Source: Candidatus Spongiisociaceae bacterium
GTDB lineage: Bacteria > Actinomycetota > Acidimicrobiia > Spongiisociales > Spongiisociaceae
Length of the DNA: 64,000 bases
Assembly (NCBI GenBank): GCA_965262915.1
Contig: OZ253564.1
Coordinates: forward strand, 2,720,001-2,784,000
Direction of reading: 5' to 3'
Both the position numbers and the translations under genes were made by a program. Below are positions 3,749-34,253 of this stretch, piece by piece. Each line of letters opens with the position of its first letter. Position 1 is the stretch's first letter. The notes under the pieces are model-generated. The model was not told the DNA's origin, searched no databases, and saw nothing but the letters and a program-made list of their open reading frames with translations.

Positions 3749-3758
3749 TAGGTGACTC

Positions 3759-5348: not shown

Positions 5349-5362
5349 GTCACCCCCGACCC

Positions 5363-5821: not shown

Positions 5822-5825
5822 CCCG

Positions 5826-6332
5826 TCATGCTTCGAATCTCTTGACGATTAGCCTTCCTAACCCGTTATGACGTATATCCTCACATCTATCAGTAAAGGT
5901 CACGGGAAGGTCAATAAAGCTCGCAAACAGTGTCGTCACTTGAAGCTCAGGATCCGCACTACGGGCTGGATCGTTCGCCGCCAAGCCACCCGCGGAAGGG
6001 TCACCGTAAAAGATAGCGAACTCCGAAAGCTCACGCTGAAACTCTGAACTGTAAGCAAGCTGCTTACCTCGAGACATCTGAGGAGACCGCCAAAAATAGA
6101 GTATGTCTCCCGGTGCAATTATCCCATGGTGTGGCGGTCCCTCGGGAGGTAGTCTCAGGATCTTGTCTCCCTCAAGGTGCAGCATGATCTCGCGGCTTGC
6201 CCAGTTCGCGTGGAGGGACATTCCCGTAACAGGGAGAATGTCCCATACGGCGTTGCACGTGTTCGGCACGACATCGTCGTGCATCTCCGCTATTGCGGTT
6301 GTCCCTGCCAGTTCGAAGAGCAGCCTTCTCAA
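5826..6332 (-). CDS. DUF3830-like protein, copy 2
   Basis: VPNTCNAVWDILP..HANWASREI..PGDILYF..EFAIFYG. Confidence 0.75.
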   Translation of the reverse strand: MRRLLFELAGTTAIAEMHDDVVPNTCNAVWDILPVTGMSLHANWASREIMLHLEGDKILRLPPEGPPHHGIIAPGDILYFWRSPQMSRGKQLAYSSEFQRELSEFAIFYGDPSAGGLAANDPARSADPELQVTTLFASFIDLPVTFTDRCEDIRHNGLGRLIVKRFEA

Positions 6333-19280: not shown

Positions 19281-20315
19281 CTAACCGAACAATCTGCGGA
19301 CCTGGGTACCCGACCGTTTCTTGACCGCCAGCACCGACAATGCTTCCATCACCACGCGGTTGGCCGCCATCGAGGTCAGGTCGGCATGGTCGAACGGAGG
19401 GGACACCTCAACGACGTCCATACCCGCGAGATCGACCGCATTGACTACTTGCCGGACTGCCCGCAGCAGTTCTCGGGTGCTCAGCCCGCCCGGCTCGGCC
19501 GTACCCGTCCCCGGAGCGTACGCGGGATCGAGAACGTCGATGTCGACGCTGAGGTAGACGGCATCGGCGCCGTCGAGCGCTTCGTCGATCGCCTTGTCCA
19601 CGACCGCCTCGGCGCCGTGTTCCTCGATCTCGGTGATGAAATGCGATCGGAAGCCCTTCTCCTTCATCCAGGCGAGGGTCTCCCCGTCCGGCCAGTAGCC
19701 CCTGAGGCCGACCTGGACGAAGTTCGGTCCCGCTATCGCACCCGACTCCAGCAGCTTGCGCATGGGCGATCCGTGGTTGGCGATCGGTCCGGTGACCTCG
19801 CCCGTGTCGGCGTGTGCATCGAAGTGGACCATCCCGATCCTCGTCGGGTCGTTGACCTCAGCGATGGCAGTGGCTGACGGCCAGGTGATACCGTGGTCGC
19901 CTCCGAGAACGATCGGTACCGCGCCGGTTCTCGCCAGATCGCGAACCTTTCGATAGATCATCGCGTAGCCCCGTTCCAGCCACACCGGTTCGATGTTGGC
20001 GTCGCCGGCATCCACCACGTCGAGAACCTCGAAAACGTCCACGCCCAACTGGAGCGAGTAGAAGCCGCCGTAGTTGTTGTTGGCCGTGCGTATGGCCCTC
20101 GGCCCGAATCTGGCGCCCGGCCGGTATGTGCTGCCGTCATCGAGCGGCGCACCGACGATGACCGCATCCGGTGCCCGGGCGGCAACCTCCCCGATGTCCT
20201 CGACCAGAGGCAGCTTGGCGAATGTGGTAGCTCCCATGTACGCAGGCAGGGAGAAGTCCGGGCGCTCTACGAACTCCTGCTTGTCCCATCCGTGCATGTT
20301 GGCGTAATCAGCCAT
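19281..20315 (-). CDS. speB: Agmatinase/guanidinobutyrase family ureohydrolase
   Basis: RPGARFGP, GGDH, HFDAHAD, HGSP, SVDIDVLDPAYAPGTG. Confidence 0.88.
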   Translation of the reverse strand: MADYANMHGWDKQEFVERPDFSLPAYMGATTFAKLPLVEDIGEVAARAPDAVIVGAPLDDGSTYRPGARFGPRAIRTANNNYGGFYSLQLGVDVFEVLDVVDAGDANIEPVWLERGYAMIYRKVRDLARTGAVPIVLGGDHGITWPSATAIAEVNDPTRIGMVHFDAHADTGEVTGPIANHGSPMRKLLESGAIAGPNFVQVGLRGYWPDGETLAWMKEKGFRSHFITEIEEHGAEAVVDKAIDEALDGADAVYLSVDIDVLDPAYAPGTGTAEPGGLSTRELLRAVRQVVNAVDLAGMDVVEVSPPFDHADLTSMAANRVVMEALSVLAVKKRSGTQVRRLFG

Positions 20316-20352
20316 TGCCCACCCTCCGGTTATCGCCTTCCTTGGCTCAGAT

Positions 20353-21300
20353 CTATCGTGAGACCTCGTCCAGCGCAGCCATCTGGCCTTCCGTGAGCGT
20401 CAGCGTCGTGTATTCGATCAGCGCTTCCAGTTGCTCCGGCGTGCGGGCGCTCGCTAGCACCGCCCCCACTCCCGGGCGGGCGGCTACCCACGCCAGGGCC
20501 ACGGAGGCCAGCGCGACTCCGTGGGCCCCCGACACTTCTTCCATCGCGGCGATGATGCGCCTTCCCTTGTCGGTCAGGTAGGCGGAGGCGGTTCCGGCCC
20601 GGGGGCTGTCGACCCGGTGCTCCGATGTGTATTTGCCGGTCAGGAAGCCGCATGCCAGCGCGTAGTACGGGAGGAAGGCCCATCCTTGATCCTGGGCGAC
20701 GGGGAGGGTGCTCTGTTCGACGCCCCTCTCTACCAAGCTATACATCTGCTGCAGCGCGATGGGTCGATGGAACCCGCCGGCCCGGGTGATCCGCACCCAC
20801 TCCTCCAGGCGTTCGGCTGAGTAGTTGGAGACGCCCAGATACCGCACCTTGCCCTCGTCCACCAGCTCCGACAGGGCCCCGATGGTCTCCTCGAGTGGCG
20901 TGTCGGGGTCGTCGAAGTGGGCGTAGTAGAGGTCGATGACGTCGACGCCGAGACGCCGGAGCGAGGCTTCGATCGCGGCTCTGATCGTGGCGGGCGCCAG
21001 ACCTATGTACCGGGGATGCTGGCTTACTTTGGTGGCGATCACCATGTCGTCACGATTGGCCCGTTTCTTCAGCCACCGGCCGATGATGGTCTCGGTTTCC
21101 CCTCCCTCGTTTCCGGGGGCCCACATCGGATACGAGTCTGCGGTGTCGAGGAAGTTGCCGCCGGCGGCGACGTACGCGTCCAAAACCGCGAAGGAGGTGG
21201 GCTCGTCCGCCGTCCAACTGAAGGTGTTCGTCCCCAGAGCCAGTGGATACACCTCCAGATCGGAACCTTCGAGCCTTCGTCTTTGGGGAGTGGTCGCCAA
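20353..21300 (-). CDS. Aldo/keto reductase
   Basis: LGTNTF, DTADSY, IATK, SLRRL..DLYYAH, GVSNY. Confidence 0.93.
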   Translation of the reverse strand: MATTPQRRRLEGSDLEVYPLALGTNTFSWTADEPTSFAVLDAYVAAGGNFLDTADSYPMWAPGNEGGETETIIGRWLKKRANRDDMVIATKVSQHPRYIGLAPATIRAAIEASLRRLGVDVIDLYYAHFDDPDTPLEETIGALSELVDEGKVRYLGVSNYSAERLEEWVRITRAGGFHRPIALQQMYSLVERGVEQSTLPVAQDQGWAFLPYYALACGFLTGKYTSEHRVDSPRAGTASAYLTDKGRRIIAAMEEVSGAHGVALASVALAWVAARPGVGAVLASARTPEQLEALIEYTTLTLTEGQMAALDEVSR

Positions 21301-21451
21301 GGTACCTTCCTATCGTGATGTCGGGTATTCAAGCAACGGCGTGCACGATTTGGCAACAGTTCCTTCGGGCCCCGGCAGCCTGTGCGTGTGGCCCGGACGA
21401 AGTTTGGGACCTATTGGCCTGGCGACAGGACAGATCAACGAGGAGTTGAGC

Positions 21452-22078
21452 TCAACGAACTCCACCGTGGGCGACTATCGAGTCTCCGGTTAGCGGGTCC
21501 TTATCTAGGACTATCAGATCCTCGATGCGTTGGCGCAGTTCGCTTACATGCGAAACCACCACGACGAGGCGTTGGCGGCGCTCCGCCACCAACGATTCCA
21601 CGCCTTCCATGGCTAGGTCGAGATGCTCCGGGTCGAGGGTACCGAGACCCTCGTCGAGGAAGAAGGCGTCCAGCCGCCCTCCCCTGCGGCCGACCATTTC
21701 GGCCAGCCCCAGCGCGAGGGACAGCGAAGCGAGGAAGGTCTCACCACCTGAGAGGCCGTCAGCTCGGTGGATAGCGTCGGCGGAGTTGAGATCCATCACA
21801 TGGAACTGCCCGTCCTCCGTGAAGCGGTAGCGTCCGGACGAGAGGCGCTCGAAGTGGTCGGATCCCAGACCGGCCAGGACCGCCCGTTCCTCGTCGAGCA
21901 GGAACCGGATGAAGCGGGCATCGGTCAGGCCACGGACCAGTCGTCGGTTCAGGCGCACGCCGTTCTCCCGTCTTCGGCGTTCACGCAACAGCTCGACCAC
22001 GCCGGCTACCAGTTCCTCTTCCCACTCGAAGTCGGCGGCGATCTGATCCCGCCTCGCCCTGACTTCGGCCAGGGCCAC
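21452..22078 (-). pseudogene. sbcC: C-terminal fragment of a Rad50/SbcC paralogue
   Basis: LSGGETFL, FFLDEGLG, VSH present; no Walker A; 5' end lies ~35 bp from an IS630 end. Confidence 0.82.
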
Positions 22079-22114
22079 ATCGATCGAACTCTCGATTCCA
22101 TGTTGGGACGGTGA

Positions 22115-23013
22115 CTAGTGCCCTGTGTTGGGAATCCACTGAAGATATGCGGTGAGGTTGTTGAGTGTCTGGTCGGCGGTCTTGCGCCAGACGAACGGTT
22201 TCGTTGATGGATGCGTTGAGTTCGCGTACCGACCGGCGGGTGCCGCGTCGTCGCCGTTTGGTGGTCAGCTCGGAGAACCATTGTTCGACGGGGTTCATCC
22301 ACGAGGAATAGGTGGGTGTGTGATGGAACGTGAACGGTGGATGGCGTTGTAGCCGGCGGTTGATGGAGGCGGTTTTGTGGGTGGAGACGTTGTCGAGGAT
22401 CACATGCACATCGAGCTCCGGGGGGGGGTTCAGGTACAAACCACCACGTCGTGGACCTTATTCGACGAACTGGGGATCAGGCGAAATCTTGAAGTCCTCG
22501 GTCCGGTGCGCCTTGAGGCGGGAAGCCCGCGAAATCTTGGAGATCGACGACGCGGACAGCCCAACCGCCGCCGCCATCCTGCGGGTCGACCACTGCGTCG
22601 CTCCCCGAGGGCTCCCCTCCAAGGTCATGACCAACACCTCTTCGACTTTCTCGTTGGTGATCTTCCGCGGCGGTCCCGGCCGAGGCTGATCACAGAGCCC
22701 ATCCACACGGCGGACGGCGAAACGGTTCCGCCATCTGCCCACCGTCGTCGGATGACAACCCTGCTCCGCGGCGACATCCACATTGGCCCGACCCTGCGAC
22801 GCTTCCAACACGATCCGGCACCGCATCGCCAACGCCTGAGATGTGGTATGCCGCCGTACCCAACGCTGCAGGGTCTCCCGCTCGTCGCTGCTCAGCTCGG
22901 TCACCACCGGTTGACGCCCCCGGCTAGTACTCATCGATATCTTCTCTAATCAATAACAATCCATCTCTAACTCATACTACAAAATATGGCGATATAGAAC
23001 TACAGGACACTAG
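22115..23013 (-). mobile_element. IS630-family element, internally deleted/frameshifted
   Basis: CTAG at both ends, terminal IR tagtg(c/t)cctgt; HTH part 22458-22934; DDE part HVILDNVSTHK..HHTPTYSSWMNPVE.WF. Confidence 0.88.
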
Positions 23014-23098
23014 GTGGTCACCTAAGTCAAAGGACCCCCACACCCATACACCACAAGAATGGACACTACTCGTGATCCTTGGTCTAGATTTGTGACGG

Positions 23099-24247
23099 AT
23101 GAGAGTTCTGCACACTTCGGACTGGCATGTGGGGCGTGCGATTCGCGGCAGGAGTCGGGCGGATGAGCACAGAGCGGTCCTTTCTGAGATCGTGCGCATC
23201 GGGCAGCAGTGGGAAGTTGATCTAGTCCTGGTCGCGGGCGATGTGTTTGACTCGGCGGCACCGTCACCTGAGTCGGAGCGGATTGTTTATCGGACTTTGC
23301 TTGACTTGGCCGACGTGGCGCCGGTGGTCATAGTTGCTGGCAATCACGACAATCCGCGTCGGCTGCGGGCTGTGACACCGCTCTTGAAACTCGGCCGCGT
23401 CACCTCTCTAGGCTTCGTTACGCGTCCAGAGGATGGTGGGGTGGTTGTCGGGTCCGACATCGGGTTGGGATGCCCGACTCGCGTGGCTTTGCTCCCGTGG
23501 CAAAACCAGCGCGGGATAGTGACGGCTGCTGATTTGATGTCGAAACAGGCCGATCAGACTACCTCTGACTACGCGGGTCGAATGGGTCTTATTATCAACG
23601 CTTTGTGTCAGAGTATGACTCTCGATTCGGTTAATCTGCTGGTCAGTCATCTGACTGTACATGGTGCCCGAGATGTGGGAAGCGAGAGAGCCGCCCATGT
23701 CTTCGGTTATGCCGTAGCTGCTCAGACTTTCCCTGGTCACCTCTCTTATGTGGCATTGGGTCATTTCCACCGACAGCAGCAGATCCCCGCTTCGGCACCG
23801 GTGTGGTATGCGGGATCCCCTCTTCAACTTGACTTCGGGGAAGCGGGGGAAGACAAGGGGGTTTTGGTGATTGAGGCCGAGCCGGGTCTTCCGGCGGCTG
23901 TAAATCCAGTTCGGTTAGTGTCCGGCAAGCGGCTAGTGGTGCTGCGCGGGACCCTTGACGAGGTTGTCACGGCTGCCGGGGACCATTTGGGTTCCTACAT
24001 CAAGGTGGAGATCGACGAACCCGCCCGGGCTGGGATGGCTGACGAGGTACGGGCGAGGATCCCCGGCGTGGTTGACGTGACGCTCTCTGTTGTCCACCGT
24101 CAGTCGGCCGCATCTGATGTGCCCAAGCGTGTGGGTCGTAGTCCTCGGGACCTGTTTCGCGAATACCTGTCAGAGTGTGGCATTGAGGACAAGCGGGTGA
24201 GCGAACTGTTCGACCAACTGGTGGATGAGTCCTCCGATGAGACCTAG
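23099..24247 (+). CDS. sbcD: Mre11/SbcD metallophosphoesterase nuclease
   Basis: HTSDWHVG, AGDVFD, AGNHD, SHL, YVALGHFH, YAGSP..DFGE. Confidence 0.95.
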   Translation: MRVLHTSDWHVGRAIRGRSRADEHRAVLSEIVRIGQQWEVDLVLVAGDVFDSAAPSPESERIVYRTLLDLADVAPVVIVAGNHDNPRRLRAVTPLLKLGRVTSLGFVTRPEDGGVVVGSDIGLGCPTRVALLPWQNQRGIVTAADLMSKQADQTTSDYAGRMGLIINALCQSMTLDSVNLLVSHLTVHGARDVGSERAAHVFGYAVAAQTFPGHLSYVALGHFHRQQQIPASAPVWYAGSPLQLDFGEAGEDKGVLVIEAEPGLPAAVNPVRLVSGKRLVVLRGTLDEVVTAAGDHLGSYIKVEIDEPARAGMADEVRARIPGVVDVTLSVVHRQSAASDVPKRVGRSPRDLFREYLSECGIEDKRVSELFDQLVDESSDET

Positions 24248-27200
24248 CCGTCTGGAACTCGAAGGATTCTCCGTGTTCGGCGAGCGCATCGTAGTCGAGT
24301 TCGGTACTGCTGACCTGTTCGTCATCACGGGTCCGACGGGTGTCGGCAAATCATCAATCCTCGATGCGATCGTTTTCGCTCTTTACGGGTCTGTCTATCG
24401 GTACGGGAAGCGAGCGGTGAAACCCGTGATCACCCAGGGGCTGCTCCAAGCTCGGGTACGCCTCGACTTCACCGTGGGTCACGATTCATACACCGTGGCC
24501 CGGCTGGTCCGCCGGAAGGGCGCAGGCGATGCGATGCTTGAGGGGGAAGGTGTCACGCTGGCCCAAGGCGCCCGGGGCGTGAACGCACGGGTGGAGAGAA
24601 CATTGGGCCTCGACTTCAATCAGTTCACTACATGCGTGGCTCTCCCACAGGGCGACTTCCATAGGTTCCTTCGGGCAAGCGCAAGGGATCGCCAAGATCT
24701 ACTGATAAAGCTGCTAGACCTCGACATATACGAACGGGTTGGTCGCCTCGCGTCTGAGAGACGTAAGTCCACAGAAGGCCGAGCGGAGGAGATAAGAGCA
24801 CAACTTCGGGCCATTGGAGACTTCCTAGAGGTGAAAGACGCCGAGGCGCGTGTCGTGAAAATCGAGTCGGTGATAGACCTGTTGGATCGGGCGGAGTCGG
24901 AGATCGAAGAACTGACTCGCAAAGAAGCTGAGGCACGAGCCGGATCCGAAGACTATCACAGGCGCAGTTCCAGACTCGCCGCGCTACGTCGACCTCAAGG
25001 CCTTGACCGATTGATGAACGACATCAGCCAGGCATGTGAAGCAGCTACCGCTGCGGAGGAAGGCAGGAAGCAGGCCATCCGCGTGGTGTTGGACGCTGAG
25101 GAGGCGCTGGCTAGGCGCTCCTCAAACGAGATCACGGTGGCTATTGACCGTCGGCGGGAGCTTAGCAACGCTGAGCAGCGACTTAGCGATGCCAGATGTG
25201 ACGCCGCAGAGGCGTTGGCTCAGCGCCAGGAAGCAGACATTGGTGCGACGGAGGCGGTTGCTAGGGCGAAGGCGGCGGATGAGGCCGCGGACGCCGTGGA
25301 AGCCCAAACCGCGGTGGCGGAGAAGGAGGCACGAGAGTTGGAAGGTCAGGACGCGGACGCGGATCGGCAAGCCTTGAAGGCGGAGGGCCGAGCCCAGATG
25401 GCCGAGAAGGACGCTGCAGAGGCGGAAGCCCGCGCGAAGGCGGTGGATGTGGCGGCCGAGGCTGAGGAGGCTCGAGCCCGTGAAGCCGAGCGAGATGTTG
25501 CAGAGGCGGAAGCCCGCGCGAAGGCGGTGGATGTGGCGGCCGAGGCTGAGGAGGCTCGAGCCCGTGAAGCCGAGCGAGATGTTGCAGAGGCGGAAGCCCG
25601 CGCGAAGGCGGTGGATGTGGCGGCCGAGGCTGAGGAGGCTCAAGCCCGTGAAGCCGAGCGAGATGCTGTGGAGCAGGAAGGTCGGGCCGCGGACGCCGAT
25701 CGAGAAGCTGTTGCGGCGGAAGGCCGGTTTGAGATAGCGGAGAAGGACGCCCGGGAGGCGGAGCGCCGGGCCGAAGACGCGGACAGAGCGGCTGAGACCA
25801 CGGCGAGTGAAGCAGAAGTAGCAGAGGAACGAGCAGCCGCAGCTGATCAGCAAGCTCGGTTAGCGAAGCGACAAACCGGGCAAGCAATAGCGGACCGAGA
25901 CGAGCGTCGGATAGAGTTGGGCCTGATTTCGGGAGAAGTGGAGTCGACGGAACCGTATCCGCTTATGACCCGACGTTTGGCCGCGACATTTGGGTTGGGG
26001 GCAGCGGTGGGCGCTGCTGCCGGGGCCATTGTGCCAGACCTAATTCATCCTGCTATCGGCGCTGCCATAGGTGCCGCTTCAGCGATTCTGTTGTCGACCC
26101 TTCTTCAGATGCGTGGCAGAAAACAGATCGCTGCCATCATGCGAGCAGCCGACGAACGCGTGAGTAACGCACGTGCGTCCACCGAAGAGGCGTTGAGTGT
26201 GGCTTATCAGGAGAGAGGAGACGCACAAGCAGCATCGGAAGCCGCGGAGCGCAGGAAAGCGGCTCTGGGTCGAGCTCAAGCAGATACGGTTCGAGTTGGG
26301 AAGCTGGCGAGCGACATGTCGATGTCCGCTGACCTGATACGACAGGACGCAACTCGCGCGCGAGCAAGGGCGCTCCAGGCCAGGGAGTCCGCTAACGGGA
26401 AAAGACGGGAAGCGGACGCGGCGGGTGACGCAGCGAGAGGGGCGCGGGCGGGTGCGGTAAGGGCGGGGGAGTTGGCGGGCGAAGTTAGGGTGTCCGCCGT
26501 GTCGGCGAGGGAGGTGGCCAAGGGTGCGCGGGCCGATGCGGTCCGGGCTAGAGAGTCCGCGGACGAAACGCGGCAGAGGTCCGATCAGGCGCAGGACGCG
26601 CTGTGTGGGGCGCGGGCGGGTGCGGTACGGGCGGGGGAGTTGGCGGGCGAAGTTAGGGTGTCCGCCGTGTCGGCGAGGGAGGTGGCCAAGGGTGCGCGGG
26701 CCGATGCGGTCCGGGCTAGAGAGTCCGCGGACGAAACGCGGCAGAGGTCCGATCAGGCGCACGATGCGGCCAGAAACGAGAGGTCCCGCGCGGCATCAGC
26801 CGCTGAGATGCTGGCTTCCGTGAGCAGCCGCGCCGAGGAGAAGGAACGTACAGTGCAAACTATCTGTGCCACGGTGGCCGACCTACGTGCAGGGCTGCGA
26901 GGTGTGGGAGATATCGGAGCGCTAGAGGTCGAACTCAGCGAAGTGGTAGCAGCGGAACAACAGTTGGTCGCGGGACGAACAGCCCAGACGGAGGCGGAGA
27001 AAGCCAAGACGAGAGCCGATCTGCAAGTTGCGAAACTCGAGCGCGAGCGAACGACCGCCGTTGGTGCGCTAAAGGAAACCTGTGGTCGGCTGGACGAACT
27101 TGGGCCACCAGAGTTCGATGTGGAGGATCCGGCCGAGGGCTGGTCCAGATTGCTCGATTGGGCGCAGGTGGCCGGGTGTGATGCGGATCGGCGTGCCGCA

Positions 27201-27917
27201 TTGTCTTCTGAGGGGGCGGACCGCTTTCTCTCCGGACGGCGCGAGTTGAGCCAGGCGCTCGAGGCTGCTTGTCGGCGCGTCAGCGTCGACACTACGGGTC
27301 GTCGGATGCGGGACGCGGTCGTGGATGCTGCCGCGCTGGCTAGGAATAACGTGGCCAGAGCGCGCGAGGGAGCCGAGGTGCGCGAACGGCTACGTGAGAT
27401 TACCGAGCAGGCTCAAGTAGTTGAAGTTCTAGCCCGTCTGATGCGTGTCAGTCGTTTTCCGAAGTGGTTGCTTGCCACAGAGCTGCAGCATTTGGCCGAC
27501 CGTACCGAACGCCGTCTCTCGGAACTCACAGGAGGTCGCTACCAACTTGCTGTTTCCTCAGATCTGGACCTCGAGATCGTCGATCACCACGCGGCGAGCG
27601 AGCGGCGTTCGGTGCAGAGCCTCTCCGGTGGTGAGACCTTCCTGGTGTCTTTGGCGTTAGCGCTGGCCTTAGCGGATCATGTGGCCGACACAGCTGAAGG
27701 TGTGACACGCCTCGAATCGCTATTCCTTGACGAGGGCTTCGGCGCGCTCGATCCGGAAACGTTAGAGGTTGTCTCCGCCGCGGTTGGGGAGCTAGGGGCG
27801 TCCGGCAAAACTGTCGGAGTGATCACGCACGTCAAGGAGTTAGCAGACCAGGTTCCGGTACGGTTCGAGGTGCGCAAGACCGCAGCCGGAGCGGAAGTCA
27901 TGAAGGTGGAGACGTGA
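24237..27917 (+). CDS. sbcC: Rad50/SbcC-type SMC ATPase with extended coiled coil and central hydrophobic hairpin
   Basis: GPTGVGKS, LPQGDF, LSGGE, LFLDEGFG.LD, ITH; no CxxC; overlaps the sbcD stop. Confidence 0.9.
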   Translation: MRPSRLELEGFSVFGERIVVEFGTADLFVITGPTGVGKSSILDAIVFALYGSVYRYGKRAVKPVITQGLLQARVRLDFTVGHDSYTVARLVRRKGAGDAMLEGEGVTLAQGARGVNARVERTLGLDFNQFTTCVALPQGDFHRFLRASARDRQDLLIKLLDLDIYERVGRLASERRKSTEGRAEEIRAQLRAIGDFLEVKDAEARVVKIESVIDLLDRAESEIEELTRKEAEARAGSEDYHRRSSRLAALRRPQGLDRLMNDISQACEAATAAEEGRKQAIRVVLDAEEALARRSSNEITVAIDRRRELSNAEQRLSDARCDAAEALAQRQEADIGATEAVARAKAADEAADAVEAQTAVAEKEARELEGQDADADRQALKAEGRAQMAEKDAAEAEARAKAVDVAAEAEEARAREAERDVAEAEARAKAVDVAAEAEEARAREAERDVAEAEARAKAVDVAAEAEEAQAREAERDAVEQEGRAADADREAVAAEGRFEIAEKDAREAERRAEDADRAAETTASEAEVAEERAAAADQQARLAKRQTGQAIADRDERRIELGLISGEVESTEPYPLMTRRLAATFGLGAAVGAAAGAIVPDLIHPAIGAAIGAASAILLSTLLQMRGRKQIAAIMRAADERVSNARASTEEALSVAYQERGDAQAASEAAERRKAALGRAQADTVRVGKLASDMSMSADLIRQDATRARARALQARESANGKRREADAAGDAARGARAGAVRAGELAGEVRVSAVSAREVAKGARADAVRARESADETRQRSDQAQDALCGARAGAVRAGELAGEVRVSAVSAREVAKGARADAVRARESADETRQRSDQAHDAARNERSRAASAAEMLASVSSRAEEKERTVQTICATVADLRAGLRGVGDIGALEVELSEVVAAEQQLVAGRTAQTEAEKAKTRADLQVAKLERERTTAVGALKETCGRLDELGPPEFDVEDPAEGWSRLLDWAQVAGCDADRRAALSSEGADRFLSGRRELSQALEAACRRVSVDTTGRRMRDAVVDAAALARNNVARAREGAEVRERLREITEQAQVVEVLARLMRVSRFPKWLLATELQHLADRTERRLSELTGGRYQLAVSSDLDLEIVDHHAASERRSVQSLSGGETFLVSLALALALADHVADTAEGVTRLESLFLDEGFGALDPETLEVVSAAVGELGASGKTVGVITHVKELADQVPVRFEVRKTAAGAEVMKVET
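25416..25667 (+). repeat. 84-bp (28-aa) tandem repeat x3 in the N-terminal coiled-coil arm
   Basis: Units start at 25416, 25500, 25584: AEAEARAKAVDVAAEAEEARAREAERDV. Confidence 0.95.
26439..26768 (+). repeat. 168-bp (56-aa) tandem repeat x2 in the C-terminal coiled-coil arm
   Basis: Units start at 26439 and 26607: GARAGAVRAGELAGEVRVSAVSAREVAKGARADAVRARESADETRQRSDQA. Confidence 0.95.
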
Positions 27918-28825
27918 GGTTCAGCGTTGAGACATGGTCTTCGGAGTACGGCACCCCGATGGCGTCGGATATCGTCCAATCCGACGTTGTGCCGGATGTG
28001 GGCCGTGAGGTAAGCGCCGATTATTGGTCGCCGCTCCGGCCATCGACAGATCCGGCGCGCGATGTGTTATTTGTGGACGGAGTGCGGCGCGTCGACGCAA
28101 ACCTTTGGATAGAACAATCCGGATCTGATCCAGTGCTTGGATTGTGCGCATCCTACTCTGCCGGAGCGATACGCTCAGTGCAGCACACAGCGCGCTTGGT
28201 GGCTAGCCGCGTCGAGCGGTGTCTGTTTACCGTGGCCAGGCAAGCACTGGATGTCGCCACTCGATATGGAACGTATGCCGTTCAACCAACCAAGGGAAGC
28301 ACCCCGGAGGAATTGTGGCTGGCGATACAGGACCGGATGGGACGGCTCGAGGGGCAGGTCTCAGGTGGACTTAGTGGCATGGGCCTAGTCGTTGTTGATG
28401 GTCCACTATCGCATCATCGGCATGTACCGGACGCAGTAGGGTACGTAAAGACACATCATCGTTACTATCTGCCAGAGAAGCTGCGAGGAATCCTCCCCGC
28501 GCTTCCTGCCGGATGCCGTACCCCGCTGTTTTTCCTCGGAAACGGAACCTACCGCTGGTCTTGGTACCTGCGTGTCGCTCAGGGTGCCGGACCGATGGGT
28601 GGGATAGTGAGATGCGAATTGGCAGCAGATCGGGCTGTCACCGATGCAGCGCGGATGGCCGATCTGGTGACCGCTACCCTGCCCAGATACGCGTCCGAGG
28701 AACACAAGGATCCTAGAGCACCTCAGAACCTCTATCCGGTGGGGGCTCTGGAGCGGCAGCTACACCACCGGATGGGAGACCAGCAGCTACTGTTCCGAGC
28801 GTTGCGCCAGGCAGCAATCGGATAG
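27914..28825 (+). CDS. nurA: NurA-family nuclease (Deinococcus/Thermus type)
   Basis: FVDGVRR, VVDGPL, GYVKTH, SWYLR, DPRAPQNLYP..LE..L; GTGA overlap with sbcC. Confidence 0.85.
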   Translation: MRFSVETWSSEYGTPMASDIVQSDVVPDVGREVSADYWSPLRPSTDPARDVLFVDGVRRVDANLWIEQSGSDPVLGLCASYSAGAIRSVQHTARLVASRVERCLFTVARQALDVATRYGTYAVQPTKGSTPEELWLAIQDRMGRLEGQVSGGLSGMGLVVVDGPLSHHRHVPDAVGYVKTHHRYYLPEKLRGILPALPAGCRTPLFFLGNGTYRWSWYLRVAQGAGPMGGIVRCELAADRAVTDAARMADLVTATLPRYASEEHKDPRAPQNLYPVGALERQLHHRMGDQQLLFRALRQAAIG

Positions 28826-28942
28826 CCTTGCACACAGCATCCGACTACGCCGGGTTCGAAATCAAGAGATGGCCCTTCTGCTTACACCTTCAACAAAGTA
28901 ACCGCTCAGTTCTCTTTCTACAACGCCAGCGGGTGTCCGTCT

Positions 28943-30634
28943 TTAACGGTCAAGACCCGCGAACGGGTCTCCAGAGATAGAATCCGGCGACGGATTGGGG
29001 GCACACTCCGAGGCCCGTGTAGCCCATGCAGGAAATGGGAACTCTACCACCAACGGCAGCGGCAACTCAGGTTGGGAGACCACCATAGTGCCCGGCTCCA
29101 GGAAGGTGGCACGCTGGCGCAAAGATGCAGGAAGGAACCCATACTCCGGCCGAGAGGCTTCCGCCGAGTCGAGTCGGCCGACTACGCGTAGCGAAGAGTT
29201 AGCGATGATACGCCGCTCGACCTCCGACGCGGTTTGCTGAGCACCGAAAAGAATGACGCCCAAGCTCCTCCCCCGCTCTGATACATCAAGCAGGACCTCC
29301 TTGATGGGACTCGACCCGTCCCGCGGTGCGTACTTGTTCAGCTCGTCCAACACCAGAAACAGCAGTTCGCCCGACTGTCCGGCCGCTTCCCGATCCTCGA
29401 AAGCCTTCCGGACTATTACGCCCACGACAAACCGCTTAGCGCGGTCATGAAGGTTATGCAGATCGACCACCGTCACCTGATGACGGAGCGGAATCACAGC
29501 GTGCCGTGCAGACTCCGGTACGTCGCCGCGGATCAGCCGCTCGACATGGCGTACCGCCCCCATCAGTCGGCGGATGAACGCGTTTATGGTGCCGGCACCG
29601 ATGGCCGGGCCTGCCCATTGTCGGCGCGTGCTCTCGTCTTGGACCATGCTGCTTACCACCTCGGCCAAGTCACGGAATGTGTGTACCGTCTTCTCACCTA
29701 CACGTACTCCCCCGTCCGGTAACTCGGGGACACAACGGAGCTGTGCCATGACGTTGTGGACCACCATCGAGTAATGGGCACGATCATCCTCGGCGTCGGC
29801 GAACAAGAAAGGAAGCAGGTCCTCTCTACAGAATTCGGCCAACGTCCAGAAGAAGGAGGTGACGCCATCGGTACGGGCAGCCACGTCAGGAGCAGCATCC
29901 GCAGAGTGGCGCCTGGGCGGTGCGTAGATCCCTACTGACCGGAATGGCCTACTAGGCAGCCCAAGTCGTTTGTAACGATCAGGTTGGTCCGCGTCGAGAT
30001 ACTTATTGGCACGGTCCAAAAACAACAGATCCTCGCCTTTAACATTGAAGACCAACGCCTTGGTGTTCACACCCCGAACACCCAACACACGACTCGTGAA
30101 CAAGGAATGGAGCAGAAACGTGGCGTAACTGGTCTTGGTGGCCACTCCCGAGATTCCGGAAATGTTGGCATGGGCACCACGGCGGCCGTCCACGAACTCC
30201 AGATTGACGAATACCGGATCTCCTACCCGGGAAAGCCCAATCGGAAGGCGTTCCCTCATGCGATCGAAAGACAGGGCAAGGTCGCGCTCTTCATCACGCG
30301 CCTTGTATACCTCTAGCCCGGGAAGGGGCGGCACGAACACCTCGGGGACGAAGCGCGTAGTCGTCACCTGTGCGGCCTCGGCAACCTCCGCGGGAAGACG
30401 ACCATCGGAAACTAAGAACACGTCAGAGTCGAATCTGGTACCCTCATGGCGCGCGCGTACCTGTACCACAACGCCAAAGATCCGCACCCTTCCACCGTCA
30501 GGCAGCGACCTCTCCAGCGCCACCACGTCATCGAGTTGCAAATAGCTGCCGGGGGCGATGCCAACCCAGAAGTCCAACGGAGTGGCGAACTCAGTTCCCA
30601 GCACACGGCCCACAACCGGTCCACGTTCAACCAT
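28943..30634 (-). CDS. herA: HerA-family DNA translocase ATPase
   Basis: N-terminal HAS barrel-like region, HANISGISGVATKT Walker A variant, LDELNKYAP, ERGRSLG, AQQ. Confidence 0.88.
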   Translation of the reverse strand: MVERGPVVGRVLGTEFATPLDFWVGIAPGSYLQLDDVVALERSLPDGGRVRIFGVVVQVRARHEGTRFDSDVFLVSDGRLPAEVAEAAQVTTTRFVPEVFVPPLPGLEVYKARDEERDLALSFDRMRERLPIGLSRVGDPVFVNLEFVDGRRGAHANISGISGVATKTSYATFLLHSLFTSRVLGVRGVNTKALVFNVKGEDLLFLDRANKYLDADQPDRYKRLGLPSRPFRSVGIYAPPRRHSADAAPDVAARTDGVTSFFWTLAEFCREDLLPFLFADAEDDRAHYSMVVHNVMAQLRCVPELPDGGVRVGEKTVHTFRDLAEVVSSMVQDESTRRQWAGPAIGAGTINAFIRRLMGAVRHVERLIRGDVPESARHAVIPLRHQVTVVDLHNLHDRAKRFVVGVIVRKAFEDREAAGQSGELLFLVLDELNKYAPRDGSSPIKEVLLDVSERGRSLGVILFGAQQTASEVERRIIANSSLRVVGRLDSAEASRPEYGFLPASLRQRATFLEPGTMVVSQPELPLPLVVEFPFPAWATRASECAPNPSPDSISGDPFAGLDR

Positions 30635-30643
30635 TACCCGTCG

Positions 30644-30665
30644 AGCATAGGCCCTCGGACGGACA
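30644..30665 (-). promoter_or_regulatory. PafBC-type DNA-damage promoter TGTCCG-N10-TATGCT upstream of herA
   Basis: Correct TGTC..-N10-TA-N3-T geometry, ending 9 nt before the ATG. Confidence 0.6.
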
Positions 30666-30794
30666 TAACGGCAAAACACCCGGAAGACGGATCGAGCACC
30701 CGCGACTAAGCACCGGTGTAGTGGCCGACCGACACGCGTGTTCCGAGCCCAGGCTAGATCAGCGCGCGCAGGCCGCCACGCTGCCTGGCCACGT

Positions 30795-30987
30795 GGAGGG
30801 CTCCCAGATCGTCACACGTCGCGGTATCGAAATGGCGGTTGTCGTCCCGATCTGGCAATGGCGCCGGATGGAACGCACGAGACGACGGAACAGCAAAGAG
30901 TGGCTACTCACGCCTGAGGCACGCACCGAGACGCTGACACCCCGGCGAGGACAACTCAACAGCCGTCCACCGCCCGCATCCGACTAG
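30795..30987 (+). pseudogene. Phd/YefM antitoxin remnant (N-terminus not recognisable)
   Basis: EGSQIVTRRGIEMAVVVPI..W pattern directly upstream of the PIN gene. Confidence 0.6.
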
Positions 30988-30993
30988 CCGGCC

Positions 30994-31416
30994 GTGTACT
31001 TGCTGGATTCCAACGTCGTCTCCGAGTTACGGCGACCACGTCTGGACGCGTCCCTAGTTGACTGGATTGCCGGCGTACCGGCCGAACAGCTATTCGTATC
31101 CGCCGTCACGATCGGTGAGATCCAAGCGGGGATAGAGATCACCCGTCGCCATGACCCCGCCAAAGCAGAGGAACTCGAAGAGCGGCTTGACGAGCAGGTG
31201 CTCGGGGGATACGATGTCTTGGCGCTGGACGCCGTCGCGTTTCGCGAATAGGCCCGGCTCATGCGCCGTCGATCCGACACCCTGATACAAGACGCCATGA
31301 TCGCCGCAGTCGCCGTTACCTATCGACTGACGGTGGTCACTCGCAACGTAGGGGACTTCGAGACGCTAGGGGTGGCGGTCTACAACCCGTTCGATGACCC
31401 CGATGGAAACAGTTGA
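30994..31416 (+). pseudogene. vapC: VapC PIN toxin with in-frame nonsense codon
   Basis: YLLDSNVVSE..; TAG at 31249-51, then in-frame ARLM..DAMIAAVA..LTVVTRNV.DF...V.NPF. Confidence 0.88.
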
Positions 31417-31484
31417 ACCACCACCAGGGTCGGATCTGTCCGAGTGACGGCCTTCCCGCGTGGAGGTTCGAGACGGCGGCGCCG

Positions 31485-32693
31485 TCAGATCCTTTCGACG
31501 ACGACGGAAATACCCTGGCCGACTCCTATGCACATGGTGGCCAGGCCGTAGCGTCCCTCCCGCTTCTTGAGTTCGTGAACCAGGGTGGTGAGAATCCGGG
31601 CCCCGGAGCAGCCCAGCGGGTGCCCGAGGGCGATAGCCCCTCCGTTCACGTTGAGGGTTTTCGGGTCGATACCGAGTTCGTTGCGGCAGGCCACCCCTTG
31701 GGCGGCGAAGGCCTCGTTGAGTTCCACCAGGTCTAGGTCGGACACGCTCAGACCGGCGCGATCCAATGCTTTCAGGGTGGAGGGCACCGGGCCGATTCCC
31801 ATCAGGTCGGGATGGACTCCGGCCACGGCCGAGGCGACCAGGCGGGCGATGGGTGTAAGGCCGGTCTCCTCCAAGCCCTTGGAGGTCGCCAGGATCACTC
31901 CGGCGGCGCCGTCGTTCATCGGCGAGGAATTGCCCGCGGTGACCGTTCCCCCTTTCCTGAACACGGGCCGGAGTCTGGCCAGCGCTTCCATCGAGGTGTC
32001 CGTCCGGGGCCCTTCGTCGGATGTGATCAGAGCCATGGTGCGACCCTTGGGTCCTGACGGAGCTTCGATGGGGACCACCTCGGCGTCGAACCGGCCCGCG
32101 CCTTGGGCGGCGATTGCCCGGCGGTGGCTGGTCAGGGCGAACTCATCCTGGTCGGTACGGGAGACATCGTATTTGGCCGCTACCTCTTCTGCGGTCTCGC
32201 CCAAAGTGATGGGCGGGTACATCATCCGCATGCGCGGATTGGTGAGCCGCCAGCCGAGAACGGTGTCCACCATTCGAGGGGCTCCCACCCCGTAGGCTCG
32301 CTCGGGCTTCGTCACTACGAAGGGAGCGCGGCTCATGGATTCGGATCCCCCGGCGATCATCACGTCTCCCCACCCCGAGGCCAAGGCCTGAGCCGCGGTG
32401 ATGATGGCCTGGAGTCCCGATCCGCACAGACGGTTAACGGTCTGGCCGGTGATCTCGATACCCAGTCCGGCCAGCAACACGGCCATACGCGCCACGTTGC
32501 GGTTGTCCTCCCCGGCCTGGTTGGCGGCGCCCCACACCACGTCCTCGATGTCGGATGGGTGGAGGCCGGGGTTGCGCTCCATCAGGGCGCCCACCACGTG
32601 GGCCGCCAGGTCGTCGGGCCGCAGTGCGGCCAGTTGCCCTCCGATCCGCCCCATGGGAGTGCGGCATGCGTCTGCGATGTATATCTCGGTCAT
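31485..32693 (-). CDS. Acetyl-CoA C-acyltransferase (thiolase, PaaJ/PcaF-like)
   Basis: GEDNRNVARM, NRLCGSG, NEAFA, GHPLG.SG, CIGVGQG. Confidence 0.93.
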   Translation of the reverse strand: MTEIYIADACRTPMGRIGGQLAALRPDDLAAHVVGALMERNPGLHPSDIEDVVWGAANQAGEDNRNVARMAVLLAGLGIEITGQTVNRLCGSGLQAIITAAQALASGWGDVMIAGGSESMSRAPFVVTKPERAYGVGAPRMVDTVLGWRLTNPRMRMMYPPITLGETAEEVAAKYDVSRTDQDEFALTSHRRAIAAQGAGRFDAEVVPIEAPSGPKGRTMALITSDEGPRTDTSMEALARLRPVFRKGGTVTAGNSSPMNDGAAGVILATSKGLEETGLTPIARLVASAVAGVHPDLMGIGPVPSTLKALDRAGLSVSDLDLVELNEAFAAQGVACRNELGIDPKTLNVNGGAIALGHPLGCSGARILTTLVHELKKREGRYGLATMCIGVGQGISVVVERI

Positions 32694-32852
32694 GGCTCTC
32701 GGTACTCGCGCATGCCGGTACCGTACTCCCCTCGGGCGGCGGTCGTTCGGCCATTCCCAACTCGATTCCCGGGACCCGGTGTTCGGGTCTCTTCGAAGTC
32801 GGGGAGAAGGTCCTAACATAAGTGCTGGTTTGCCGTGTTGACGGCTGTTTTA

Positions 32853-32890: not shown

Positions 32891-34253
32891 ATACCTTCTC
32901 GACATTGGCGAACCCGACCCCATCACCCCCAGCCACGGTGTGGTGTCCGAGGCGGAGCGGTCATTCGCCGGTATGTTCATGACCCGCTACCAGAAACAAC
33001 GCCAGCGCGCCTACGACCGGGCGGCGCATATGGTCAACAGCGCTGGTCATCATCCGCATCGGGAAACCGAGGACGCCAAAGCAGAAGCCGGACTGGTAAG
33101 GGCCCAGGTCCGCATCAGCCGGGCCTAGGGCGACCAAGTGGGGTGGGTGAAGAGCATGCTGCGGTTCAACATGGCCGCACACCGTGGGTACCGGACCCCG
33201 GTGGACATGGTGGTCTCCCTGGCAGATGTGCCATGCTCGGCCGCCCGCGAGCTCGTGTATCTGGCCGAGCGGCTGGACGAAGGCGAGATTGCGCGGATAC
33301 GGGCGGGCGAGGTCTCCTATGCCCGACTGTTGGAAGAAACCCGCCTGCGAGAAGCCGGAGCGTCTGCCGGGGAGGTGGAAGCAACCCGTGAGTTGGATCT
33401 CGATCGGGTCAAGCGGGTCTGCCAGCAGCGGAGGAAGATGACCCGGGAGGATGAGCGGCGGGTGTTCGAGGGCCAGTATGTGGCGTTGCAGCCGTCTCTG
33501 GACGGAACGCATATGCGGGTGATGGGCAAACTCGGTGCTTACGAGGGGGAGTTGTGCCGCAAGGCCCTCAACCAACTGGGCGACCGGCTCATACCCGCCG
33601 GCGAGACCCGTCCCGATCCGGGGCACCGAAGGGCGCTGGCGCTCACCGCCCTGTGCCAGGACGAATTGGACCGGGACCCGAGCTCCGGACCGAGATCAGA
33701 CAACCCGGATGCTTCATCATCGGGGAAGCGGCGGGAGCCGCTGCTCATGGTCGTAGCCCACCATCCCCTCGCCGAGGAGTCCGGCTACGAGCAGGGCGCC
33801 GGGGTACTGGCCGGCGGCAGGGTGGGGCCGGACACCATCGATATGCTCACCTGTCGGGGCCGGGTCGAACACGTCACGGTCGGGGGACAGAGCCTCACCT
33901 ACCACGGCTCGACGTCTTCGATACGGCCTTCGCTGCGCCGAGCTGTCCTGGCCCGAGATGATGGGTGCACTATCGATGGCTGCACTTCCACCTACCGGCT
34001 CGAAGTCCACCACATCATCAGGAGGTCCGGGGGTGGGGATCACTCCGCGGAGAACCTCACTACCCTCTGCTGGTGGCACCACCACGTAGCCATCCACCGG
34101 CGAGGAATGCGCATCGACCCCCAATCCCCACCCCGCAGAAGGCGGCTACTACCCCCACGGGCACGGTGCGGCTACCAGCCACCCGGCCCCGACCCTCACA
34201 CCGTGGCCATCCTCCGCATCCTCGAACAACACTCCAACCGATCCCCACCCTGA
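32883..34253 (+). pseudogene. DUF222-like/HNH endonuclease (13E12-type) with one in-frame TAG
   Basis: RRAVLARDDGCTIDGC, LEVHHI..GGDHS.ENL.TLCWWHH; TAG at 33126-28 with the frame preserved; the downstream part may be expressed from 33138. Confidence 0.72.

What the first reader, a model, noticed from the sequence alone, without database searches (positions are those of the whole stretch)
23099..30665. Mre11-Rad50-NurA-HerA module built around a hook-less, putatively membrane-anchored Rad50
Seen: translationally coupled sbcD-sbcC-nurA with herA convergent; all Rad50 ATPase motifs are intact; there is no CxxC anywhere in the 1226-aa protein, and a hydrophobic hairpin lies at its centre. Known: Mre11/Rad50/NurA/HerA is the archaeal and Deinococcus/Thermus end-resection set, and Rad50/SbcC normally carries a zinc hook; YhaN-type SMC-like proteins have central TM segments, but I do not know them as partners of NurA-HerA. 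Inference: a membrane-tethered machine that senses and degrades DNA ends, for repair, for processing incoming DNA, or for anti-phage/plasmid defence (neighbours are IS630, VapBC and HNH).
Basis: partly seen in the sequence, partly recalled or inferred. Interest (0 to 1): 0.8.

Follow-up and report, generated by a model that had tools for sequence, protein, structure and literature searches.

The report
Hook-less SbcC with hydrophobic apex hairpin
An otherwise ordinary bacterial DNA-break repair gene set whose long-armed ATPase has swapped its usual zinc-binding tip for a greasy two-helix hairpin that may sit in the cell membrane, a change found in this species alone among its relatives.

Summary
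Window 23099-30679 encodes SbcD, SbcC (1226-1230 aa) and NurA with overlapping stop and start codons, plus a convergent HerA. NurA and HerA match the Deinococcus NurA-HerA structure 7F6D. SbcC keeps all its ATPase motifs. It has no CxxC, and its midpoint is a 45-residue stretch with one charged residue, predicted as helix-turn-helix with glycine-zipper motifs.

The four-gene module is standard for this Acidimicrobiia order. NurA lies within 5 kb of sbcC in 36 of 40 relatives. It sits among housekeeping genes and is not a defence island.

The tip is unique. All 177 relatives' SbcC that I could parse (18, 149 and 10) carry a central CxxC. A tree of the ATPase heads nests this protein inside the hook-bearing clade.

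About 84 hook-bearing residues were replaced by 537. These form two helical arm extensions, built from 28/56-residue tandem repeats, and the hairpin. The newest duplications add 56 residues to each arm at facing positions.

The allele recurs almost unchanged in a second assembly and in contigs from three studies. The heads stay conserved, which argues for function. Membrane insertion is inferred, not shown.

This scan has noted hook-less, hairpin-tipped Rad50 proteins on other DNA before. This one looks like an independent origin.

The parts
23099..24247 (+). sbcD (Mre11-type nuclease), 382 aa
   Evidence: TIGR00619 sbcd scores 174.6 bits against a cut-off of 77.65. Pfam Metallophos E 2.3e-13.
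24237..27917 (+). sbcC (Rad50-type ATPase), 1226 aa. An alternative ATG at 24225 gives 1230 aa, which is the numbering used in this report.
   Evidence: Pfam AAA_23, SMC_N and SbcC_Walker_B all hit. TIGR00618 scores 253 bits, below its cut-off of 478.5. The start was chosen by alignment to P0246. Junction sequence.
24330..24356 (+). Walker A (aa 36-44)
25200..26810 (+). Lineage-specific central replacement, aa 326-862 (537 aa). It stands where relatives have about 84 aa that include the CxxC hook.
   Evidence: BLASTP against P0246 aligns aa 5-325 with 1-328 and aa 863-1230 with 413-778. AF2 predicts it almost entirely helical.
25415..25665 (+). N-arm tandem repeat, 84 bp x 3 at 99% identity (aa 398-480, three 28-aa units). 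It lies inside an older 84/168-bp array spanning about 25298-25750.
25977..26111 (+). Apex hairpin. Helix 1 is aa 585-603, the turn PDLIHP is aa 604-609, and helix 2 is aa 610-629. Glycine-zipper patterns start at aa 586, 592 and 612. The hairpin is flanked by RR on one side and RGRK on the other.
   Evidence: Sub-threshold Pfam Gly-zipper_OmpA hit, 17.2 bits against a cut-off of 27.
26439..26768 (+). C-arm tandem repeat, 168 bp x 2 at 98% identity (aa 740-845, two 56-aa units), inside an older 84-bp-period array.
27621..27833 (+). C-terminal head motifs: LSGGE signature (27621-27635), Walker B/D-loop (27720-27752), H-loop (27819-27833).
27914..28825 (+). nurA, 303 aa, GTG start overlapping the sbcC stop
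   Evidence: A profile of 19 homologues hits NurA chain 7f6d_H at E 6.6e-32. Pfam NurA matches 19 of 19 family members at E<=1; this member alone scores 11.8 bits, below the cut-off of 21. Junction sequence.
28943..30679 (-). herA, longest ORF 578 aa. The database start, M16, gives 563 aa (start at 30634).
   Evidence: phmmer hits HerA chain 7f6d_B at E 1.9e-144, with the same Walker A-like and Walker B stretches.
21452..22078 (-). Remnant (last 208 aa) of a second, different sbcC
   Evidence: Pfam SbcC_Walker_B E 8.5e-08. 74% identical over 208 aa to the C-terminus of the SbcC of same-genus genome G005.
21981..22934 (-). Degenerate IS630-type transposase in two ORFs (HTH part 22458-22934, DDE_3 part 21981-22439), lying between the sbcC remnant and sbcD

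Best explanation
This is the standard SbcD(Mre11)-SbcC(Rad50)-NurA plus HerA machine for resecting double-strand-break ends in its Acidimicrobiia order, at its usual chromosomal place.

In this species alone, the tip of the SbcC coiled coil has been rebuilt. The segment that carries the CxxC zinc hook in every relative is replaced by two long helical arm extensions grown by tandem duplication. These are capped by a nearly charge-free helix-turn-helix with glycine-zipper motifs.

I read the protein as functional and the hairpin as its new apex. Most likely it inserts into the cytoplasmic membrane as a helical hairpin, with both arms in the cytoplasm. There it may also pack against the hairpin of the second SbcC through its glycine zippers. 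That would do the hook's job of joining the arm tips.

The arms are doubled, about 395-410 residues each against about 195-210 in relatives. At the textbook 0.15 nm per residue that is roughly 58 nm against 29 nm. This would let the ATPase-nuclease heads still reach the DNA. SbcCD would then recognise and clip ends, and NurA-HerA would resect them, as in Deinococcus and archaea.

Shown: gene identities, loss of the hook, the composition of the hairpin and its predicted helicity, its uniqueness, the derived position on the tree, the balanced repeats, and conservation of the heads. Inferred: membrane insertion, self-association, and activity.
For: Module identity. It is typical of the order: SbcC matches in 38 of 41 genomes and NurA in 39 of 41 (both counts include the window's own genome). 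NurA lies within 5 kb of sbcC on the same strand in 36 of 40 relatives, by my reading of the coordinates.

Hairpin. There is no CxxC, and two hydrophobic windows score KD 1.86 and 1.83. The 45-residue run with one charge exceeds the relatives' maximum of 34. Six Arg/Lys lie in the 15 residues on each cytoplasmic flank and none in the six-residue turn, which fits the positive-inside rule (read from the sequence). (G/A/S)xxxGxxx(G/A/S) patterns start at aa 586, 592 and 612. AF2 places helices at 580/584-602 and 609-629, set off from long arm helices.

Derived and unique. The central CxxC is present in 18 of 18 parsed relatives (29 loci), 149 of 149 best representatives out of 1.84 billion, and 10 of 10 parsed loci next to the closest NurA genes (12 loci). 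The heads-only tree nests the protein in a 6-row group (SH-aLRT 90) inside a 28-row clade (98) of hook-bearing proteins.

Function retained. 74 of 78 head columns that are >=95% conserved are kept, and the 4 changes are conservative. Head identity is within about 1 SD of what NurA identity predicts. The newest duplications add 56 aa to each arm, at 104-187 residues before and 111-216 after the hairpin, so they face each other in an antiparallel coil.

Not an assembly error. A second assembly differs at 4 of 1214 residues with no indel, a rate similar to NurA (1 of 303) and HerA (1 of 563). The apex DNA is found whole, with 0-1 mismatches, in contigs of runs from three studies. One of these may be the window's own source.

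Precedent for a replaceable hook. Passages of review PMC7752040 say that hook and SMC/MukB hinge are interchangeable dimerisation modules.
Against: No dedicated TM predictor or experiment was available. Single Ala/Val-rich windows with KD above 1.5 also occur in the coiled coils of 16 of 149 hook-bearing relatives, so hydropathy alone is weak evidence. The helices are Gly/Ala-rich and only moderately hydrophobic. AF2 confidence is low at the hairpin, with 10-residue block means of about 30-70.

Only one lineage carries the hairpin, so there is no comparative support for it. The terminal branch is 0.82 against 0.22-0.40 for its sisters. The protein differs at 4 highly conserved columns, against a median of 1 and a 90th percentile of 3 in relatives. 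Both figures would also fit relaxed constraint.

The genome also has an AdnAB-like pair and a RecC homologue, so SbcC may be dispensable. The locus has been rearranged: an sbcC remnant, an IS remnant, and a relocated herA.
Confidence: 0.45

Rival explanations
1. The hairpin is a soluble tip-to-tip dimerisation module and not a membrane anchor. Two Gly/Ala-rich hairpins would pack into a small helical bundle that replaces zinc-mediated joining, leaving the complex cytoplasmic.
For: Glycine-zipper patterns occur on both helices. [quoted passage not shown] The helices are Ala/Gly-rich, not Leu/Ile/Phe-rich. Per review passages, the hook's essential role is dimerisation.
Against: A 45-residue run with a single charge, bracketed by RR and RGRK, is a membrane-like layout. 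The central domain of SbcE, the nearest described analogue, was insoluble when overproduced.
Confidence: 0.2
2. This is a neutral or decaying one-off allele. The hook was lost in a rearrangement-prone locus and the centre filled by slippage-driven repeat expansion. The protein would be impaired or inactive, tolerated because other resection systems exist, and the hydrophobic stretch would be incidental.
For: All 177 parsed relatives keep the hook. The terminal branch is long. The allele has more changes at conserved columns than 90% of relatives. There is an IS remnant, an sbcC pseudogene remnant and a displaced herA beside it. An AdnAB-like pair and RecC are present. In yeast, hook mutants behave like nulls (review passage).
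Against: The 1226-aa frame is open, while the other five frames of the same DNA hold 22-48 stops. All ATPase motifs are intact, and 74 of 78 conserved columns are kept. The arm gains are equal and face each other. A second assembly shows no indel, and its substitution rate is no higher than in NurA or HerA. sbcD and nurA remain translationally coupled to it.
Confidence: 0.27
3. It is an anti-phage or anti-plasmid defence system that degrades incoming DNA ends at the membrane.
For: PADLOC gives partial hits of the SbcC head to mad3 and LmuB (E about 1e-20) and of HerA to mad8 and HerA models. A discussion passage of PMC3326311 speculates that HerA-NurA could destroy foreign DNA. A membrane position would suit incoming DNA.
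Against: The hits cover only shared ATPase domains, and no complete known system is matched. The neighbours are YchF, GpsA, arginase, aldo-keto reductase, thiolase, NUDIX and an MFS transporter. The locus is syntenic within the genus. The module is near-universal in the order, as expected of core repair genes.
Confidence: 0.05

Closest known systems
Canonical bacterial SbcCD with a CxxC zinc hook, as in the Acidimicrobiia relatives (for example P0246, 778 aa) and E. coli SbcCD
   Same: The head domains are 46% identical to P0246 by BLASTP, and up to 59% to P0247 over the aligned head columns. All ATPase motifs, the SbcD partner and the operon position upstream of nurA are the same.
   Different: There is no CxxC. 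About 84 hook-region residues are replaced by 537. The arms are roughly twice as long and partly made of recent tandem repeats. The apex is a hydrophobic helix-turn-helix.
Mre11-Rad50-NurA-HerA end-resection set of archaea, and the NurA-HerA complex of Deinococcus radiodurans (PDB 7F6D)
   Same: NurA and HerA are clear homologues of the Deinococcus proteins (E 6.6e-32 with a profile, and 1.9e-144). All four genes are clustered. Review PMC8708640 (passages) already lists Actinobacteria among the bacteria that have NurA/HerA homologues.
   Different: herA is convergent here. It is co-directional and upstream in the 6 of 12 closest loci where it was seen within the flank. The SbcC tip also differs, as described above.
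SbcE (YhaN) with SbcF (YhaO) of Bacillus subtilis
   Same: It is an SbcC-like SMC-family ATPase that lacks CxxC. Its central domain has a hydrophobic first half and a conserved proline, and was insoluble on overproduction. It works with a nuclease partner in break repair (passages of PMC2811018).
   Different: The window protein is not a member by descent, because it nests among hook-bearing SbcC. Its hairpin has no detectable relatives. SbcE is not reported with NurA-HerA. I could not compare the central domains directly: I held no YhaN sequence, and the paper's Supplementary Figure S1B is closed.
Hook-less, hairpin-tipped Rad50 proteins noted earlier by this scan in other genomes (AI notes, mostly unchecked)
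   Same: The design is the same: a Rad50/SbcC-type ATPase with a two-helix hydrophobic apex in place of the hook, often inside NurA-HerA-Mre11-Rad50 operons.
   Different: Those notes describe large clades defined by the trait. Here the trait is confined to one species-level lineage whose 149 nearest representatives all have hooks. That makes it an independent origin rather than membership. I did not test the notes' own claims.

Membership tests
SbcC/Rad50 ATPase of the SbcCD (Mre11-Rad50) complex | Split ABC-type head with Walker A, Q-loop, signature, Walker B/D-loop and H-loop | tested here: met
SbcC/Rad50 ATPase of the SbcCD (Mre11-Rad50) complex | Long helical arms between the two head halves | tested here: met
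   AF2 predicts aa 379-565 and 632-861 as continuous helices. Antiparallel pairing itself was not shown, because the tool returns only secondary structure.
SbcC/Rad50 ATPase of the SbcCD (Mre11-Rad50) complex | Central CxxC zinc hook | tested here: not met
   There is no CxxC anywhere in the protein. It is present in 177 of 177 parsed relatives.
SbcC/Rad50 ATPase of the SbcCD (Mre11-Rad50) complex | Adjacent SbcD/Mre11 phosphoesterase partner | tested here: met
   TIGR00619 above its cut-off. The genes overlap.
SbcC/Rad50 ATPase of the SbcCD (Mre11-Rad50) complex | Curated full-length model score (TIGR00618 sbcc) | tested here: not met
   253.4 bits against a cut-off of 478.5. Only the two heads match.
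Bacterial NurA (Deinococcus type) | Sequence or profile match to a solved NurA and to Pfam NurA | tested here: met
   The profile hits 7f6d_H at E 6.6e-32 and TM1739 at 1.6e-11. Pfam NurA matches 19 of 19 family members at E<=1, though this member alone is below the cut-off.
Bacterial HerA (Deinococcus type) | Full-length match, with the ATPase motifs, to a solved HerA | tested here: met
   7f6d_B at E 1.9e-144 in two stretches covering aa 18-558. Pfam gave no hit at E<=0.01.
SbcE/YhaN family | No CxxC and a hydrophobic central domain | tested here: met
   The family feature is taken from passages of PMC2811018.
SbcE/YhaN family | Common descent or sequence similarity with YhaN, including its conserved central domain | tested here: not met
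   All nearest relatives are hook-bearing SbcC, and the tree nests the protein among them. PF13514 rings in 12 of 14 control genomes, so it does not discriminate. No direct comparison of the central domains was possible.
Known anti-phage systems in PADLOC (Lamassu LmuB, MADS mad3/mad8, HerA-containing systems) | Full-length matches to the system's component models, with the system's other genes present | tested here: not met
   Only partial head or ATPase-core hits were found. NurA had none, and SbcD only weak ones.
Transmembrane helical hairpin (glycine-zipper type) | Two helices of about 20 residues free of charge, a short turn, positive flanks, and GxxxG-type motifs | tested here: met
Transmembrane helical hairpin (glycine-zipper type) | Actual membrane insertion, or a call by a trained TM predictor | not testable with these tools
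   No TM predictor is offered. Pfam Gly-zipper_OmpA scores 17.2 bits, below its cut-off of 27.

The most novel reading that the evidence does not exclude
A recent, independent natural swap of the supposedly universal Rad50/SbcC zinc hook for a membrane-inserted glycine-zipper hairpin, inside a clade where every other known member keeps the hook. The arm length doubled alongside it through matched tandem duplications in both arms.

If so, the hook is evolutionarily replaceable. Membrane tethering of the Mre11-Rad50-NurA-HerA machine would be a recurrent, selectable solution. This lineage would also offer a before-and-after pair (it versus about 46%-identical hooked sisters) for testing what the apex really does.
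Probability: 0.35. Interest if true: 0.7.

Novelty: new variant of a known kind. Interest (0 to 1): 0.5.

Why it matters
A recent review calls the zinc hook 'absolutely conserved' and reports that hook mutants in yeast behave like nulls (passages of PMC7752040).

Here a natural SbcC lost the hook and apparently stays under constraint. It has a different apex and arms that grew in step, and it sits next to close hook-bearing sisters. That makes it a ready comparison for asking two questions. Does the apex only need to join the two arms? Is arm length tuned to where the apex is held?

If the hairpin is membrane-embedded, the whole end-resection machine would work from the membrane. That bears on the repair of membrane-proximal DNA and on the handling of incoming DNA.

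If the allele is inert, it is simply a curiosity of one environmental species.

Tried and rejected
Searches for relatives or a donor of the hairpin:
- A word-indexed protein search with aa 555-660 found only the protein itself among 4296 candidates.
- A scan of JGI metagenome contigs with aa 566-660 matched 595 pattern stretches, none a relative.
- tblastn and blastn of the central 501 aa / 1503 nt and of the hairpin against the own genome gave only self hits, compositional coiled-coil hits, and one weak hit (E 0.003) in an unrelated polytopic membrane protein.
- Three other SMC-like ORFs of the genome have no such hairpin.

An inverted or frameshifted hook: an antisense 'ACPVC' lies at 25871-25885, but a hook HMM built from 149 relatives scores it -4.5 bits, so I treat it as chance. 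No inverted DNA repeats were found in 25200-26900.

Structure:
- Complex prediction on two copies of aa 530-690 gave no verdict.
- Foldseek of the apex model against PDB gave no match at E<=0.001.
- The ESM Atlas search on aa 560-650 gave no score >=0.9.

Expression: no RNA holder was listed for the apex DNA.

Other: Rfam found nothing in the window. Promoter- and terminator-like sites were no more frequent than in shuffled sequence. PF13514 (AAA_27) proved non-specific.

Literature: searches listed no paper describing a transmembrane-tipped SbcC/Rad50. I saw only titles and abstract starts, and subscription journals are not covered.

Repeat-number polymorphism therefore remains unexamined.


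Full report
**What is there.** The window is bases 2,720,001-2,784,000 of a single 5.06-Mb contig. The names that sources give to close homologues place the organism in the Acidimicrobiia. The finding covers four genes.
- sbcD, 23099-24247 (+). It scores above the curated cut-off of TIGR00619.
- sbcC, ending at 27917 (+). Its start, ATG 24237 or 24225, overlaps the sbcD stop codon. I number residues from 24225.
- nurA, from GTG 27914 in a GTGA overlap with the sbcC stop codon.
- herA, 28943-30679 (-), convergent.

Pfam alone did not name NurA or HerA. A profile of 19 NurA homologues hits the Deinococcus radiodurans NurA chain 7f6d_H at E 6.6e-32. HerA hits 7f6d_B at E 1.9e-144, with the same nucleotide-binding stretches.

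**The SbcC.** Walker A, Q-loop, LSGGE, Walker B/D-loop and H-loop are all present. None of the 8 cysteines forms a CxxC.

At the midpoint, aa 585-603 and 610-629 are hydrophobic, with Kyte-Doolittle means of 1.86 and 1.83. Together they form a 45-residue run with one charged residue, bracketed by RR and RGRK. In the 149 nearest relatives the longest comparable run has a median of 18 and a maximum of 34, and it is often the hook region itself. Both helices carry (G/A/S)xxxGxxx(G/A/S) patterns.

Two single-sequence AlphaFold2 models, of aa 500-715 and aa 326-862, agree on the layout: a long N-arm helix, a loop, a helix at about 580/584-602, the turn PDLIHP, a helix at 609-629, and then a long C-arm helix. 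Confidence is good in the arms and low at the hairpin.

**The module is ordinary for the lineage.**
- Among the window's genome and 40 relatives of its order, 38 of 41 genomes match SbcC and 39 of 41 match NurA.
- By the coordinates in those two calls, nurA lies within 5 kb of sbcC on the same strand in 36 of 40 relatives. In 17 it is directly downstream, as here. In 19 it is about 3.8 kb upstream, in a nurA-herA-sbcD-sbcC order. One of the 17 is G039, an unpublished genome.
- The neighbours are YchF, GpsA, NIPSNAP, arginase and aldo-keto reductase on one side. On the other they are thiolase, an HNH protein, NUDIX, a glucose dehydrogenase and an MFS transporter.
- The same flanks surround the module in same-genus genomes.
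- PADLOC gives only partial ATPase-domain hits.

A review already lists Actinobacteria among bacteria with NurA/HerA homologues (passages of PMC8708640). So the four-gene set is core repair equipment, not a defence island.

**The tip is unique and derived.** A central CxxC is present in the following sets.
- 18 of 18 relatives' SbcC that my script could parse. These came from 29 loci; 11 were cut off or missed by my P-loop pattern. One of the 18 is from unpublished G039, which leaves 17 of 17 without it.
- 149 of 149 best hits among 1.84 billion representative proteins. All of these are 654-954 aa long and at most 45% identical.
- 10 of 10 parsed SbcC genes next to the closest NurA genes in species-representative genomes. 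These came from 12 loci; 2 were unparsed.

The only other protein with the hairpin is a 1214-aa entry from a 75,885-bp contig of a second assembly. It is identical at 1210 of 1214 positions.

I built a maximum-likelihood tree of the head domains only. It had 73 rows: the window, 56 of the 149 representatives, and 16 locus-derived proteins including four of the nurA-upstream type as outgroup. The remaining 93 representatives were left out for speed. The tree puts the window protein in a 6-row group (SH-aLRT 90) inside a 28-row clade (98) of hook-bearing proteins. The hook was therefore lost on the terminal branch.

**What replaced the hook.** Against the best relative, aa 5-325 and 863-1230 align with 1-328 and 413-778. 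So about 84 residues including the hook correspond to 537 residues here.

The insert has an 84/168-bp tandem periodicity on both sides of the hairpin. The youngest layers are 3 x 84 bp at 99% identity in the N arm (aa 398-480) and 2 x 168 bp at 98% in the C arm (aa 740-845). Each adds 168 bp, or 56 residues. They lie 104-187 residues before the hairpin and 111-216 after it, so they would face each other in an antiparallel coiled coil.

The arms are about 395 and 411 residues long, against roughly 195-210 in relatives. I found no donor for the hairpin or the insert in the genome, in 5.8 billion indexed proteins, or in JGI metagenome contigs.

**Is it real and maintained?**
- The apex DNA (25670-26435) lies whole, with 0-1 mismatches, in contigs of runs from three studies, and partly in a fourth. 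One of these may be the window's own source.
- The second assembly differs by four substitutions and no indel. That rate is like NurA's (1 of 303) and HerA's (1 of 563).
- The coding frame is open across 1230 codons, while the other five frames hold 22-48 stops.
- Of 78 head columns at least 95% conserved in 147 relatives, 74 are kept and the four changes are conservative. Two of the 149 relatives were skipped for lacking my P-loop pattern. Relatives differ at a median of 1 such column, with a 90th percentile of 3.
- Head identity to nine canonical proteins is 48-53%, where NurA identity predicts 53-57%. The residuals run from 0 to -9, with an SD of 4.3 among canonical pairs.

On the other side, the terminal branch is two to almost four times longer than those of the sisters. 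The heads are conserved but somewhat accelerated.

**Reading.**
- Membrane-anchored apex (0.45, my preferred reading). The protein is functional and the hairpin is the new apex, most likely membrane-inserted and possibly self-associating through its glycine zippers. The lengthened arms would let the heads reach DNA from the membrane. The matched duplications in both arms are what selection for an intact coiled coil would produce, although a shared 84-bp periodicity makes equal increments less improbable by chance.
- Soluble dimerisation tip (0.2).
- Tolerated, decaying one-off (0.27). This is helped by redundancy, since an AdnAB-like pair and a RecC homologue exist. It is also helped by the disturbed locus.
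- Defence (0.05).

**Known precedents.**
- B. subtilis SbcE/YhaN lacks CxxC and has a hydrophobic, insoluble central domain (passages of PMC2811018). Its Supplementary Figure S1B, which I could not open, would be needed to compare the domains.
- A review states that the hook and the SMC or MukB hinge are interchangeable dimerisation modules, and calls the hook absolutely conserved (passages of PMC7752040).
- My four literature searches listed no paper on a transmembrane-tipped SbcC/Rad50.
- This scan's own earlier AI notes report hook-less, hairpin-tipped Rad50 proteins in at least 50 other genomes, described as large clades. I did not verify those claims. My data show only that the present protein is not a member of such a clade by descent, which makes it an independent origin of the same design.

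**Verdict.** The module is ordinary. The SbcC tip is a real, lineage-specific variant of a known kind. Membrane anchoring is plausible but untested.

Noticed in passing
window 21452-22078 (-) and 21981-22934 (-): The last 208 aa of a second sbcC, 74% identical to the SbcC of same-genus genome G005, lies next to a degenerate IS630-type transposase split into two ORFs. The IS copy is unique at this identity. It is about 73% similar to a family with 13 copies in the genome and appears to lack about 240 bp that those copies have. It looks like the scar left when a nurA-herA-sbcD-sbcC type module was displaced.
   Followed up: partly
window 19281-32819; L032 (G005), L033 (G002): Within one genus the same chromosomal place, next to the thiolase gene, holds three different versions of the module. 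G005 has nurA-herA-sbcD-sbcC. G002 has herA-sbcD-sbcC-nurA between the aldo-keto reductase and the thiolase. The window has sbcD-sbcC-nurA with herA inverted downstream. The window's genes are closest to those of other families of the order (herA 72%, nurA 56% to G030), which suggests replacement by recombination or transfer.
   Followed up: partly
window 25871-25885, antisense strand: The opposite strand just upstream of the hairpin encodes ACPVC, which resembles the relatives' PCPVCG hook motif. A hook HMM gives it no support (-4.5 bits), so it is probably chance.
   Followed up: yes
window 30984-31298 (-): A 104-aa ORF without a Pfam match lies between herA and the thiolase. It is 68% identical to an ORF at the same place, upstream of nurA, in G005. 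It may be a conserved small neighbour of the module.
   Followed up: no
SbcC aa 473 (aa 457 in the database protein's numbering), window about 25641-25643: One of the four differences in the second assembly (Q to R) makes the third 28-aa repeat identical to the other two. This hints at ongoing homogenisation or very recent duplication.
   Followed up: no
G000:C1:4485741-4489648 and 3837026-3838018 (outside the window): Two adjacent ORFs of about 1000 aa with C-terminal PDDEXK_1 nuclease domains (AdnAB-like) and a RecC homologue. The genome therefore has at least two further end-resection systems.
   Followed up: partly
window 33138-34253 (+): A 371-aa protein with an HNH endonuclease domain, about 2.5 kb beyond herA and past the thiolase. 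I saw no link to the module.
   Followed up: no
window 1-6000: G+C is 0.556-0.565 here against about 0.64-0.66 in most of the window. This may be foreign or otherwise different DNA.
   Followed up: no
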